Source: a virus (taxonomy: Duplodnaviria; Heunggongvirae; Uroviricota; Caudoviricetes). From it: DNA of 42,756 nt. The DNA is taken from IMG/VR virus record IMGVR_UViG_2778261067_000008, positions 1 to 42,756 of that record; one strand, given 5' to 3'. Position numbers: made by a program. This document shows, one piece after another, positions 27,001 to 30,000 of this stretch. Position 1 is the first letter of the stretch; every line of letters begins with the position of its first letter.

Positions 27001-30000
27001 TGTCCGTATTTTGAAAACCGGGTGGCAGGCGCGGCCCAGTTCAAAAATCTGCCGGAGGTCGGAAAGCTGAGACTCCCGGCGGCGTATGTGGTACCGGGTG
27101 ATGACTCTCCGGGAGAAAACAAAAGCCAGACCGACTACTGGCAGGAGCTGAAAGAGGGCTTCTCCGTGGTTGTCATACTGAGTAACGGGCGTGATGAGCG
27201 CGGTCAGTTTGCCTCGTATGATGTGGTGGACGATGTCCGGCAGATGCTCTTTAAGGCTCTGCTGGGCTGGAACCCGGAGGCGTGCGGTAACCCGATTACC
27301 TATGACGGCGGCACGCTGCTGGATCTGAATCGTCATGAGCTGATTTATCAGTTCGATTTTTCGGTCATCAGCGAGCTGACTGAAGACGATACCCGCCAGC
27401 AGGATGATCTGAACAGTCTGGATGAACTGCAAACGCTGGCGATTGATGTTGATTATCTCGAGCCCGGTAACGGGCCTGACGGCGATATCGAACATCACAC
27501 CGAAATAACCCTTCCTTCCTGAGGATCCTCATGTTTGTCAAACCTGTTAAAGGGCGGTCAGTTCCTGATCCTGCCCGCGGCGACCTTTTGCCCGCCGAAG
27601 GGCGAAATGTTGACGAGAACAACTACTGGCTGCGCCGTGAAGCAGCGGGTGATATCCGGCGCGTGAATAAAAAGGTGAATACCGATGACGATAAGCTTTA
27701 ACACCATTCCGTCGAATACGCTGGTTCCGTTGTTTTATGCGGAAATGGATAACCAGGCGGCGAATACTGCACAGGACAGCGGAGCATCGCTGCTGATTGG
27801 TCATGCCAATCACGGTGCAGAGATTGTTGCCAACAGTCTGGTACTGATGCCGTCGGCAGACTATGCACGCCAGATTTGTGGTGCGGGAAGTCAGCTGGCG
27901 CGTATGGTCGAGGCTTATCGCCAGACTGACCCGTTTGGCGAGCTGTATGTGATTGCCGTTCCTGAATCCACAGGCGCGGCGGCAACGGTTACGCTGACGG
28001 TGACCGGGGCGGCAACCGAAACCGGCACGGTGAATGTGTATGTGGGACGTACCCGCGTGCAGGCACCGGTGACTAACGGCGATAACGTCACGATGATTGC
28101 CAGCAGTATCCAGGATGCCATCAATGCCGTTCCGGCCCTGCCGTTTACGGCTTCATCTTCGGCAGGCGTGGTTACACTGACCGCGCGTCATAAGGGGCTT
28201 TGCGGGAATGAAATTCCTGTCAGCCTCAATTACTACGGCTTTGGTGGGGGCGAAGTGCTGCCAGCGGGCGTACAGATTGCCGTGGCGACGGGTACCGCCG
28301 GAACGGGTGCTCCGGTTCTCACCGGCGCGGTGGCTGCAATGGCGGATGAGCCGTTTGATTATATCGGCCTGCCGTTCAACGACACGGCCTCCGTTAACAC
28401 GCTGGTGACCGAGATGAACGATACCAGCGGTCGCTGGAGCTATGCGCGTCAGCTGTATGGTCATGTGTATACGGCAAAGATCGGCACGCTGTCAGAACTG
28501 GTGACCGCAGGTGACCAGTTTAACCAGCAGCACATTACCCTGGCGGGGTACGAAAAAGACACCCAGACGCCTGCCGACGAGCTGGCGGCAAGCCGTACCG
28601 CCCGCGCAGCGGTGTTTATCCGCAACGATCCGGCACGTCCCACGCAGACCGGTGAGCTGGTGGGTATGCTGCCTGCGCCGAAGGGGAAACGGTTCACGAT
28701 GACCGAACAACAGACCCTGCTGTCTCATGGCGTGGCAACGGCGTATGTCGAAAGCGGGGTACTGCGCATTCAGCGTGATGTCACCACGTACAGGAAAAAC
28801 GCTTACGGGGTTGCGGATAACAGCTACCTCGACAGCGAGACGCTGCATACCAGTGCGTATGTACTGCGCAAACTGAAATCCGTCATTACCAGTAAGTACG
28901 GGCGTCACAAGCTTGCCAGCGACGGTATCCGCTTTGGTCCCGGTCAGGCGATTGTCACCCCGGCGGTGATCAAAGGGGAACTGCTGGCAACCTACCGTCA
29001 GCTTGAGCGTGCGGGGATCGTGGAAAACTACGAACTGTTTAAGCAGTACCTGGTTGTGGAGCGTGATGCCAGCGATCCGAACCGCCTGAACACGCTGTTC
29101 CCGCCTGACTATGTTAACCAGTTGCGTGTCTTTGCCGTGGTTAACCAGTTCCGTCTTCAGTATTCAGAGGAGTCTGCATAATGGCCCGTATCGGGGGAAC
29201 CTGTTATTTCAAAATTGACGGTCAGCAGCTATCGCTGACCGGCGGCATTGAGGTGCCCATGAACAGGACGGTCAATGATGACATCATCGGCCTGGACGGT
29301 TCAGTGGACCGCAAGGAAACTCACCGTGCGCCTTATGTTAAAGGGACCTTCAAGGTGCCGAAGAATTTTCCGGTGAGCAAAATCACCTCGTCTGATGAGA
29401 TGACCATCACTGCCGAGCTGGCGAACGGTCAGGTCTATGTACTGTCGTCTGCCTGGCTGCACGGCGAAGCGAACCATAATGCCGAAGAAGGGACGGTTGA
29501 TCTTGAGTTCCACGGTGAAGAAGGGGATTACCAGTAATGAAAGAGCTTGAGTTAAAGAAACCGATTACCGCTCATGGCGAGACACTCTCCGTACTGGAGT
29601 TTGATGAGCCCACCGGGAGAGATGTCCGCGAGCTGGGGTATCCCTACCAGATGAATCAGGATGAGTCCGTCAGACTTCTGGCGCATGTGGTATCGAAATA
29701 CATTGTGCGGCTGGCGAAAGTGCCGCAAAACTCTGTCGACCAGATGTCTCCGGCAGACCTGAATGCTGCGGCGTGGCTTGTGGCTGGTTTTTTCCTCCAG
29801 GCCTGACGGCTGAATACCTCACTGATCGCTTCTTTGACTGCGCCAGCTACTGGCGCATTAATCCCTTCGAATTGCTGAATATGCCGATCAGTGAAATTCC
29901 CTTGCTGGTCAGTCAGGCAAACAGGATAGAGCAGGAGAAACGCACACATGGCTGAATTTGAGCTTAAGGCGTTGATCACCGGTGTCGACAGACTTTCTCC

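What the first reader, a model, noticed from the sequence alone, without database searches (positions are those of the whole stretch)
29773..29955. Programmed -1 frameshift in the tail assembly chaperone gene
The 89-codon ORF between the tube and tape measure genes overlaps a -1 frame ORF; the overlap contains a T-TTT-TTC slippery run (about 29788-29794). This is the conserved chaperone frameshift seen in many tailed phages; the fused product would be about 140 aa.
Basis: partly seen in the sequence, partly recalled or inferred. Interest (0 to 1): 0.35.

Follow-up and report, generated by a model that had tools for sequence, protein, structure and literature searches.

The report
Tail chaperone -1 frameshift, P2-type
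A small phage tail-assembly gene in this E. coli prophage very probably makes a second, longer protein when ribosomes slip back one base on a run of six T's; this trick is well known in tailed phages, so the finding is correct but ordinary, and databases simply do not annotate it here.

Summary
The 89-codon ORF (29537-29806) lies between the tail tube gene and the tape measure gene. It overlaps a -1 frame ORF that is open from 29665 to 29955. The only in-phase X_XXY_YYZ heptamer in the gene, T_TTT_TTC, sits at 29788-29794. A -1 slip there gives a 139-aa product (86 + 53 aa, 15.8 kDa).

The short ORF belongs to Pfam PF10109, the family of P2 gpE and Mu gp41. The heptamer and a 52-63 aa -1 extension ending at the tape measure start recur in relatives from other enterobacteria, Burkholderia and Pseudomonas. 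P2 E/E+E', the annotated case, has T_TTT_TTG at the homologous Gly-Phe position. Substitution patterns switch frame at the heptamer: the 0 frame is conserved upstream and the -1 frame downstream. The -1 ORF has no conserved start codon or ribosome binding site.

No public record I examined annotates the shift, and PHROGs lists the extension as "unknown function". This is an unannotated member of a known kind, of low interest.

One unexplained extra is an invariant 8-bp GC hairpin at 29839-29857, 44 nt downstream, with suppressed synonymous variation.

The parts
29181..29537 (+). Tail tube gene (118 aa). Its TAA stop overlaps the chaperone ATG by one base (TAATG).
   Evidence: PF10618 Tail_tube, E 2.4e-33; ORF list; sequence.
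29537..29806 (+). Short tail assembly chaperone ORF in the 0 frame: 89 aa, 10.0 kDa, the gpE analogue.
   Evidence: PF10109 Phage_TAC_7, E 5.7e-16, 58.7 bits against a cutoff of 25; annotated 'phage tail assembly protein' in RefSeq E. coli; phrog_166 'tail protein'.
29788..29794 (+). Slippery heptamer T_TTT_TTC (0-frame codons GGT TTT TTC). It is the proposed site of the tandem -1 slip of two tRNA-Phe.
   Evidence: Only in-phase X_XXY_YYZ in the gene. Invariant in 13 diverged loci, wobble bases included. Present unchanged in 79 of 80 IMG/VR loci. Homologous to the annotated P2 site T_TTT_TTG.
29794..29955 (+). The -1 frame extension, the E' analogue: 53 codons (PPGLTAEY...EKRTHG) plus a TGA stop at 29953-29955. 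The full long product is join(29537..29794, 29794..29955), 139 aa and 15.8 kDa.
   Evidence: Translation. The -1 frame is under purifying selection: codon differences syn/nonsyn 972/906, against 167/1788 and 196/1694 in the other frames. Conserved peptide motif in all relatives. phrog_32181, E 4e-40.
29773..29775 (+). GTG that opens the mechanical -1 ORF. It is not a real start codon.
   Evidence: No SD-like sequence precedes it, and it is not conserved. Most relatives have no start codon upstream of the conserved motif, and L014 and L017 have none anywhere in the -1 ORF.
29804..29806 (+). 0-frame TGA stop, three codons after the slippery site. Unshifted ribosomes terminate here.
29839..29857 (+). 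Invariant 8-bp GC-rich hairpin (UGCGCCAG-CUA-CUGGCGCA) inside the extension, separated from the heptamer by 44 nt. Its role is unexplained, and it may not belong to the frameshift signal.
   Evidence: dG -13.7 kcal/mol, z -4.2. All 8 pairs are identical in 13 diverged loci, and the stem wobble bases are invariant while the loop and neighbouring wobble bases vary. Present in 80 of 80 IMG/VR loci. Absent from the ST64B/SfIV/phiP27 clade, BgVeeders33 and P2.
29933..29937 (+). AGGAG Shine-Dalgarno sequence of the tape measure gene, embedded in the last codons of the extension.
   Evidence: Sequence; a GGAG/GGGA-type purine-rich motif is kept at this position in the alignment.
29948..31783 (+). Tape measure gene (611 aa). 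Its ATG overlaps the extension's stop (ATGGCTGA).
   Evidence: PF10145, E 9.9e-27. The same overlap is seen in relatives.

Best explanation
This is the tail-assembly-chaperone gene pair of an SfV-like myovirus prophage with a Mu-type tail module, expressed by a programmed -1 ribosomal frameshift of the P2 E/E+E' type.

Proposed mechanism:
- Most ribosomes read 29537-29806 and release the 89-aa chaperone.
- In a minority, the ribosome holds tRNA-Phe on UUU (P site, 29789-91) and tRNA-Phe on UUC (A site, 29792-94). Both tRNAs slip back one base onto UUU UUU (29788-93).
- Decoding resumes at CCU (29794) in the -1 frame. It ends at the TGA that overlaps the tape measure ATG, giving a 139-aa protein with the same 86-residue N-terminus plus a 53-residue C-terminal domain.

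Proposed function, by analogy with lambda G/GT:
- The shared N-terminal part coats the tape measure protein.
- The rarer extension recruits the tube protein, so the tube, and around it the sheath, polymerises to the length set by the tape measure.
- Neither form is expected in the finished virion.

What is shown here: the sequence anatomy, family membership of the N-terminal part, conservation of the slip site, the switch of the selected reading frame at the heptamer, and the absence of an independent start.

What is inferred: that slippage is ribosomal, its efficiency (probably a few percent), and the division of labour between the two products.
For: Anatomy:
- In-phase T_TTT_TTC at 29788-29794, unique in the gene. 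The -1 frame is open from 29665 to 29955, and the +1 frame is closed.
- Position between the tube gene (PF10618) and the tape measure gene (PF10145). The short ORF matches PF10109 'tail assembly chaperone proteins E, or 41 or 14'.

Conservation:
- 14 of 14 genome loci, 53-98% identical, keep the heptamer and a 53-54 aa extension.
- ST64B, SfIV, phiP27 and F1055 have T_TTT_TTT. BgVeeders33 and Pseudomonas DVM-2008 have T_TTT_TTC. Pseudomonas PG1 and P2 have T_TTT_TTG. Each has a 52-63 aa -1 extension ending at or just upstream of the tape measure start.
- tblastn with the fused protein matches in two pieces, covering 98-100% of the query, down to about 39% identity.

Selection:
- Synonymous/nonsynonymous codon differences are 2478/1366 in the 0 frame upstream. 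Downstream they are 972/906 in the -1 frame, against 167/1788 (0 frame) and 196/1694 (+1 frame).
- The wobble bases of GGT TTT TTC never vary, although 75 of 83 third positions in the N-terminal part do.

No independent expression:
- No conserved start codon or SD for the -1 ORF. In four loci the -1 frame opens only 21 nt upstream of the heptamer, and in P2 only 9 nt upstream.

Precedent:
- The P2 record annotates E+E' as a joined CDS with a '-1 translational frameshift'.
- P2 E is 91 aa and E+E' is 142 aa, shifting at TTTTTTG (PMC3091744).
- The frameshift is widely conserved in long-tailed dsDNA phages, and the lambda G/GT functions are described (PMC5009743).
- U_UUU_UUC is a measurable -1 shifter in E. 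coli: 0.12% without a stimulator, 0.89% with the IS911 stimulator and 7.6% with the IS3 pseudoknot (PMC4066793, Table S3).
Against: - There are no protein data. All evidence is comparative.
- Without a stimulator the heptamer gave only about 0.1% in a reporter. I found no conserved SD-like element upstream and no conserved structure 5-9 nt downstream. The only conserved hairpin is 44 nt away, so the efficiency and any stimulator are unknown.
- A one-base insertion by RNA polymerase on the T run would give exactly the same protein, so the sequence evidence cannot separate ribosomal from transcriptional slippage.
- The extension does not match the Pfam model of P2 E' (PF06528). The profile-profile comparison is only suggestive (P 0.0065). 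Functional equivalence of the extension rests on position, size and a collinear weak similarity.
Confidence: 0.88

Rival explanations
1. Transcriptional slippage. RNA polymerase occasionally adds one extra U while copying the T6 run. A subset of mRNAs then carries the two ORFs fused in frame, and the same 139-aa protein is made without any ribosomal shift.
For: The site is a homopolymer (T6 here, T7 in the ST64B clade). Inserting one U gives exactly the junction ...GFFPPG... predicted for -1 frameshifting (worked out from the sequence). AAAAAAA and UUUUUUU are avoided in E. coli genes in all frames, possibly because of transcriptional slippage (PMC4066793).
Against: From general knowledge, efficient slippage by E. 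coli RNA polymerase usually needs runs of about 8-9 or more, and this run is only 6. In every relative the run sits in the exact X_XXY_YYZ phase, and it ends in C, T or G as ribosomal re-pairing allows. This is partly forced by the conserved Gly-Phe-Phe. The homologous P2 site is annotated as a translational frameshift.
Confidence: 0.07
2. Two separate genes. The -1 ORF (29773-29955) starts at its own GTG and makes a free 60-aa protein. This is how one phage record and PHROGs treat it.
For: The ORF begins with GTG in the window. One GenBank record annotates it as a separate hypothetical protein. phrog_32181 and a few 53-70 aa database proteins are such calls.
Against: No SD-like sequence precedes the GTG, and the GTG is not conserved. 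Most relatives have no start codon upstream of the conserved FDCA.YWRINP motif, and L014 and L017 have none in the whole -1 ORF. Yet the peptide is under purifying selection from the first codon after the heptamer.
Confidence: 0.03
3. No function. The overlap is a decayed gene or a chance open frame in a 141-nt intergenic spacer, and only the 89-aa protein matters.
For: RefSeq/PGAP and most phage records leave 29807-29947 unannotated. The motif by itself is common in the window, with 20 copies.
Against: The arrangement recurs at 95% nucleotide identity or more in about 1,070 E. coli records. It is also found in clades with only about 40% protein identity. The third-codon-position bias and the synonymous excess are specific to the -1 frame.
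Confidence: 0.02

Closest known systems
Bacteriophage P2 genes E and E+E' (programmed -1 frameshift in the FETUD tail operon)
   Same: - Same Pfam family for the N-terminal part (PF10109: window E 5.7e-16, P2 gpE 2e-12).
- Same position directly upstream of the tape measure gene.
- Nearly the same sizes: 89/139 aa here, 91/142 aa in P2.
- The slip site lies on the homologous Gly-Phe codons (GGT TTT TTC here, GGT TTT TTG in P2), at codons 84-86 here and 83-85 in P2.
- The extension's stop overlaps the tape measure start.
- No stimulatory structure close to the site.

   Different: - The last base of the heptamer is C, not G.
- The gene follows a Mu-type tube gene (PF10618) rather than P2 FII.
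- The extension does not match PF06528 Phage_P2_GpE, while P2 E' scores 2e-22. It is only weakly and collinearly similar in a profile-profile comparison (P 0.0065).
- An invariant hairpin lies 44 nt downstream, which P2 lacks.
- The P2 shift is experimentally established according to the literature cited in PMC3091744. This one is not.
Bacteriophage lambda G / GT tail assembly chaperones
   Same: Same logic and gene position: between the major tail protein gene and the tape measure gene. A short abundant product and a rare -1 extended product share an N-terminus. The extension is thought to bind the tube subunit (PMC5009743).
   Different: No detectable sequence similarity. The slippery site is different (G_GGA_AAG in lambda, from my own knowledge). 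Lambda is a siphovirus and this is a contractile-tail phage. The lambda ratio of 30:1 was measured. Here the ratio is unknown.
Bacteriophage Mu gp41 (tail assembly chaperone using a -2 shift)
   Same: The whole tail module is Mu-like: sheath, tube, DUF2635 protein, tape measure and DNA circularisation protein in the same order. Pfam names gp41 as a member of PF10109.
   Different: Mu gp41 is 144 aa and has no in-phase heptamer. Its downstream ORF is in the +1/-2 frame, and the literature describes -2 frameshifting for Mu (PMC5009743). In the window the extension is in the -1 frame and the +1 frame is closed.
dnaX / IS3 / IS911-type stimulated -1 frameshift signals of E. coli
   Same: An X_XXY_YYZ heptamer decoded by tandem slippage. 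U_UUU_UUC is also used by some IS elements (PMC4066793).
   Different: Those signals combine the heptamer with an upstream SD-like sequence, or with a hairpin or pseudoknot a few nucleotides downstream, or with both. Neither is conserved here.

Membership tests
Conserved tail-assembly-chaperone frameshift of long-tailed dsDNA phages (lambda G/GT, P2 E/E+E') | Gene pair located between the major tail/tube gene and the tape measure gene | tested here: met
   Tube PF10618 at 29181-29537, tape measure PF10145 at 29948-31783, and the pair in between.
Conserved tail-assembly-chaperone frameshift of long-tailed dsDNA phages (lambda G/GT, P2 E/E+E') | Second ORF overlaps the 3' end of the first in another frame and has no start codon or RBS of its own | tested here: met
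   The -1 frame is open from 29665 to 29955. There is no conserved start or SD, and two relatives have no start codon at all.
Conserved tail-assembly-chaperone frameshift of long-tailed dsDNA phages (lambda G/GT, P2 E/E+E') | Slippery sequence in the overlap, in the phase that lets both tRNAs re-pair | tested here: met
   T_TTT_TTC at 29788-29794, unique in the gene. It is a measured -1 shifter in E. coli.
Conserved tail-assembly-chaperone frameshift of long-tailed dsDNA phages (lambda G/GT, P2 E/E+E') | Slip site and both coding frames conserved among relatives | tested here: met
   The heptamer is invariant in 13 diverged loci and conserved as T_TTT_TTN in distant clades. The synonymous excess switches from the 0 frame to the -1 frame at the site.
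Conserved tail-assembly-chaperone frameshift of long-tailed dsDNA phages (lambda G/GT, P2 E/E+E') | Two proteins with a common N-terminus are made in a fixed ratio, both are needed for tail assembly, and neither is in the virion | not testable with these tools
   Needs a western blot or mass spectrometry, and genetics in an SfV-like phage.
Pfam PF10109 Phage_TAC_7 (P2 gpE, Mu gp41) | Score above the curated gathering threshold over the full domain | tested here: met
   58.7 bits against a cutoff of 25, profile positions 2-78 of 79. P2 gpE scores 47.4 bits in the same scan.
Pfam PF06528 Phage_P2_GpE (the E' extension of P2) | Match of the -1 extension to the family model | tested here: not met
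   No hit at E up to 10 for the 53-aa extension or the fusion, while P2 E' gives 2.1e-22. The profile-profile comparison of the two extension families is collinear but weak, with P 0.0065 and probability 5.8%. The extension works like E' by position and size but is not shown to be a member.
Mu-type -2 (or +1) chaperone frameshift | Extension encoded in the +1/-2 frame | tested here: not met
   The +1 frame is closed by several stops across the overlap. The conserved extension is in the -1 frame.
Stimulated -1 PRF signals (dnaX, IS3, IS911 type) | Conserved SD-like sequence 6-17 nt upstream, or a hairpin or pseudoknot 5-9 nt downstream of the heptamer | tested here: not met
   Upstream codons vary freely at wobble positions and hold no conserved GGAGG-like element. 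The weak hairpin 5 nt downstream is not conserved. The only conserved helix starts 44 nt downstream. No Rfam family reaches its threshold.
Transcriptional slippage sites | Homopolymer long enough for appreciable RNA polymerase slippage (about 8-9 or more in E. coli, from general knowledge) | tested here: not met
   The run is T6, and T7 in the ST64B clade. Actual slippage was not measured.

The most novel reading that the evidence does not exclude
The invariant GC hairpin at 29839-29857 is a functional RNA element specific to the SfV clade. It lies in the stretch that only frameshifted ribosomes translate. It could be a long-range modulator of the frameshift. Alternatively, it could protect the sparsely translated 141-nt segment between the chaperone stop and the tape measure start from Rho-dependent polarity or RNase attack. 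In either case it would be a second layer of control on the chaperone-to-tape-measure expression ratio that has not been described for these frameshift cassettes.
Probability: 0.12. Interest if true: 0.45.

Novelty: new member of a known kind. Interest (0 to 1): 0.15.

Why it matters
The main value is for annotation. This prophage type is present in about a fifth of complete E. coli genomes (1,089 of 5,426) and in the Shigella serotype-converting phages SfV, SfI and SfII. In every record I examined, the long chaperone form is either missing, leaving a 141-nt 'intergenic' gap, or called as an orphan hypothetical protein. PHROGs files the extension as a family of unknown function (phrog_32181). 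Recognising join(29537..29794, 29794..29955) as the E+E' analogue closes that gap and gives that PHROG a function.

It also shows that a module that is otherwise Mu-like uses the P2-style -1 site rather than Mu's -2 shift. This is a small illustration of how the direction of the shift varies while the two-product design persists. It does not change the understanding of frameshifting or tail assembly.

Tried and rejected
- Downstream stimulator: folding the 86 and 201 nt after and around the site gave unremarkable energies (z -1.9 and -1.5). The weak GGCC/GGCU hairpin 5 nt downstream is not kept in relatives.
- Rfam: an E-value scan of 29400-30100 gave only chance-level hits.
- 'Fused' database proteins: P0001-P0006 cover the fusion query but are riddled with unrelated indels. 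They are assembly artefacts, not natural fusions.
- Solved structures: only noise, light-harvesting proteins.
- NCBIfam: no model matches either this fusion or P2 E+E'.
- AlphaFold2 on the single fusion sequence: mean pLDDT 50.8, too poor for fold search. It only suggests a helical extension, so I did not run a fold search.
- Exhaustive phmmer with the 53-aa extension: only 10 hits. Three are spurious repeat proteins (P0123-P0125). The informative ones are independently called -1 ORFs that also read through an 'FF' T-run.
- Homology of the extension to P2 E': the pairwise comparison and two profile comparisons are collinear but not significant.
- Mechanical ORF null model in the window: not clean, because many listed ORFs are shadows of real genes.
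- Literature: the SfV genome paper (PMC134923) and the P2 frameshift paper (PMC135442) are not held. Xu et al. 2004 is cited only through papers that cite it. I could not check whether SfV is listed there.
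Full report
**1. What is in the sequence**

The mechanical ORF list gives four adjacent genes on the + strand:
- sheath, 27685-29181
- tube, 29181-29537
- an 89-aa ORF, 29537-29806
- a 611-aa ORF, 29948-31783

It also lists a 60-aa ORF from a GTG at 29773 to a TGA ending at 29955.

Pfam identifies the flanking genes as tail sheath (PF04984), tail tube (PF10618, E 2.4e-33) and tape measure (PF10145, E 9.9e-27). The 89-aa ORF matches PF10109, 'Phage tail assembly chaperone proteins, E, or 41 or 14' (E 5.7e-16, 58.7 bits against a cutoff of 25).

The 29773 ORF is in the -1 frame relative to the chaperone ORF. That frame is open from 29665 to 29955, and the +1 frame is closed. The 0-frame codons are GCT GGT TTT TTC CTC CAG GCC TGA. 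T_TTT_TTC at 29788-29794 is therefore in the canonical X_XXY_YYZ phase, and it is the only such heptamer in the gene.

A -1 slip there gives MKEL...LVAGFF|PPGLTAEY...EKRTHG. This is 86 + 53 = 139 aa and 15.8 kDa, against 89 aa and 10.0 kDa for the unshifted product. The extension's TGA overlaps the tape measure ATG (ATGGCTGA). The tape measure's AGGAG ribosome binding site (29933-29937) lies inside the last codons of the extension.

**2. Where the window comes from**

The segment is 98% identical at the DNA level to the Shigella serotype-converting phages SfV, SfI and SfII and to several E. coli phages. It occurs in 1,089 of 5,426 complete E. coli genomes. It is the Mu-like tail module of an SfV-type temperate myovirus. 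The neighbouring genes in a near-identical E. coli prophage form a complete head, tail and lysis set.

**3. Is it more than chance?**

The motif alone is not. TTTTTTC occurs 20 times in the window, against 9.75 expected. The comparative evidence is decisive.

- *Close and intermediate relatives.* A scan of one genome per species found 14 loci with 53-98% protein identity, in Edwardsiella, Buttiauxella, Citrobacter, Atlantibacter, Scandinavium, Kluyvera, Erwinia, Pantoea and others. All 14 keep TTTTTTC on the same codons. All have a 53-54 aa -1 extension with a conserved motif (FDCA.YWRINP..L....L.LL..QANRI) that stops at, or in two loci a few bases after, the tape measure start.
- *Distant relatives.* tblastn with the fused protein matches phage genomes in two pieces, in two frames, covering 98-100% of the query down to about 39% identity. 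ST64B, SfIV, phiP27 and F1055 carry T_TTT_TTT. Burkholderia phage BgVeeders33 and the Pseudomonas fluorescens tailocin-like cluster DVM-2008 carry T_TTT_TTC. Pseudomonas phage PG1 carries T_TTT_TTG. Each has a 52-63 aa -1 extension reaching or ending just short of the tape measure start.
- *Selection switches frame at the heptamer.* Across 13 distinct ungapped sequences, pairwise codon differences upstream are 2478 synonymous to 1366 nonsynonymous in the 0 frame, against 253/3730 in the -1 frame. Downstream of the 0-frame stop they are 972/906 in the -1 frame, against 167/1788 (0 frame) and 196/1694 (+1 frame).
- *The heptamer is frozen.* The wobble bases of GGT, TTT and TTC are invariant in these 13 sequences, although 75 of 83 third positions in the N-terminal part vary.

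**4. Can the -1 ORF be expressed on its own?**

No. The GTG at 29773 has no SD-like sequence and is not conserved. Most relatives have no start codon upstream of the conserved motif, and two (L014, L017) have none in the entire -1 ORF. In four loci the -1 frame opens only 21 nt before the heptamer. The shift must therefore occur within about 40 nt, and the T run is the only slippery and the only invariant element in that stretch.

**5. Mechanism**

The best-supported model is tandem -1 slippage of two tRNA-Phe from UUU UUC to UUU UUU. Decoding then continues in the -1 frame from CCU (29794).

U_UUU_UUC is a measured -1 shifter in E. coli: 0.12% alone, 0.89% with the IS911 stimulator and 7.6% with the IS3 pseudoknot. 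The P2 motif UUUUUUG gave 0.12, 0.25 and 0.77% in the same assays (PMC4066793, Table S3).

I found no conserved SD-like sequence upstream and no conserved structure 5-9 nt downstream, and nothing in Rfam. P2 and P2-like phages are likewise reported to lack a downstream hairpin (PMC3091744). The efficiency here is therefore unknown. The review literature gives a 30:1 ratio for lambda and a 2- to 3-fold higher frameshift efficiency for P2-like phages (PMC5009743).

The functional reading comes from lambda G/GT as summarised in that review. The shared N-terminal part binds the tape measure, and the rare extension recruits the tube subunit. Neither form ends up in the virion. None of this was tested here.

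**6. Rivals**

- *Transcriptional slippage.* Insertion of one U would give the identical protein, and sequence evidence cannot exclude it. A T6 run is short for E. coli RNA polymerase slippage (general knowledge), and the homologous P2 event is annotated as translational.
- *Independent initiation.* Contradicted.
- *No function.* Contradicted.

**7. Comparison with known systems**

P2 E/E+E' is the closest.
- Same Pfam family for the N-terminal part.
- Same location before the tape measure gene.
- Sizes of 91/142 aa in P2 against 89/139 aa here.
- Slip site on the homologous Gly-Phe codons (GGT TTT TTG in P2, GGT TTT TTC here).
- A P2 record that annotates a joined CDS and 'site of -1 translational frameshift'.

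The differences are as follows.
- The extension does not match the Pfam model of P2 E' (PF06528: no hit here, 2e-22 for P2 itself). It is only weakly, though collinearly, similar in a profile-profile comparison (P 0.0065). I therefore say it works like E', but I do not file it in that family.
- Mu, whose tail module is otherwise the nearest in gene order, has no in-phase heptamer. Its downstream ORF is in the +1/-2 frame, in agreement with the reported -2 shift. This Mu-like module thus uses the P2-style solution.

**8. State of annotation**

- RefSeq/PGAP E. coli, RefSeq SfV, SfIV, ST64B and phiP27, and GenBank records of F1055, AH07, BgVeeders33, DVM-2008 and PG1 all annotate only the short ORF and leave the extension blank.
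- One record calls the extension a separate hypothetical protein.
- PHROGs holds it as phrog_32181, 'unknown function' (E 4e-40).
- The SfI and SfIV genome papers do not mention a frameshift.
- I could not read the SfV genome paper or Xu et al. 2004. I therefore cannot exclude that SfV is listed there.

**9. An unexplained extra**

Inside the extension lies a perfect 8-bp GC-rich hairpin, UGCGCCAG-CUA-CUGGCGCA (29839-29857), separated from the heptamer by 44 nt. Its dG is -13.7 kcal/mol with z -4.2.

- It is identical in all 13 diverged SfV-clade loci and present in 80 of 80 IMG/VR loci.
- The wobble bases in the stem (TGC, GCC, TAC/TTC, CGC) never vary. The wobble base in the loop (AGC/AGA/AGT) and those of nearly all neighbouring codons do vary.
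- It is absent from the ST64B clade, BgVeeders33 and P2, and it is unique in the window.
- It is too far away for a canonical stimulator. Unshifted ribosomes terminate at 29804-29806 and never reach it.

Its role is open. The candidates are RNA stability or processing, protection of a sparsely translated segment, a long-range effect on the shift, or a DNA-level site.

**10. Verdict**

This is an ordinary, unannotated member of the well-known tail-chaperone frameshift class, closest to P2 E/E+E'. Interest is low. The practical value is in correcting annotation.

Noticed in passing
window 29839-29857: Perfect 8-bp GC hairpin (TGCGCCAG CTA CTGGCGCA) inside the -1 extension. It is invariant in 13 diverged loci, with synonymous variation suppressed in the stem but not in the loop. 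It is absent from the sister clades and from P2. Function unknown.
   Followed up: partly
window 29807-29947, with the corresponding stretch in NZ_CP010129.1, NC_003444.1 and others: Public annotation leaves a 141-nt 'intergenic' gap here in SfV-like prophages, which are present in about 1,089 complete E. coli genomes. One record calls the -1 ORF a separate hypothetical protein. PHROGs lists it as phrog_32181, 'unknown function'.
   Followed up: yes
window 29794-29802: Right after the shift the -1 frame encodes Pro-Pro-Gly (FFPPG), a motif known from general knowledge to stall ribosomes without EF-P. It is not conserved: relatives have PAG, PQG, PSG or PRD. It is probably incidental.
   Followed up: partly
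L069 about 2750-2765 (IMGVR_UViG_2585427757_000001): One of 80 viral loci reads GGG TTT TTT CTC, with an extra G before the T run and one C fewer after it. The 0-frame protein is unchanged but the T run is moved out of the X_XXY_YYZ phase. Two compensating homopolymer-length changes look like sequencing errors.
   Followed up: no
proteins P0001-P0006: Database 'proteins' that span both frames are singletons from error-prone assemblies, with several unrelated indels. They are not natural pre-fused genes.
   Followed up: yes
window 29181-29575 compared with SfIV, vB_EcoM-720R4 and VIT_AJPSC: DNA identity of about 97% to SfIV-type phages stops about 30-40 nt into the chaperone gene. From there on these phages carry the ST64B-type chaperone (T_TTT_TTT, about 42% identity) and a tape measure protein reported as <50% identical to SfV's (PMC3851460). 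This marks a mosaic recombination boundary at the tube/chaperone junction.
   Followed up: partly
whole window, both strands: TTTTTTC occurs 20 times against 9.75 expected from dinucleotide-preserving shuffles, and 0 of 100 shuffles reach 20. I did not examine why.
   Followed up: no
L109 689-1200 (Paraburkholderia phage IPK, UNVERIFIED record): A homologous chaperone ends ...GFFGQG... without a strict in-phase heptamer. Its -1 frame opens only 9 nt before the 0-frame stop. This is either a different slip site or errors in an unverified record.
   Followed up: no
proteins P0123-P0125: Long tandem-repeat proteins scored as hits to the 53-aa extension only by summing many weak repeat matches. 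They are spurious.
   Followed up: yes
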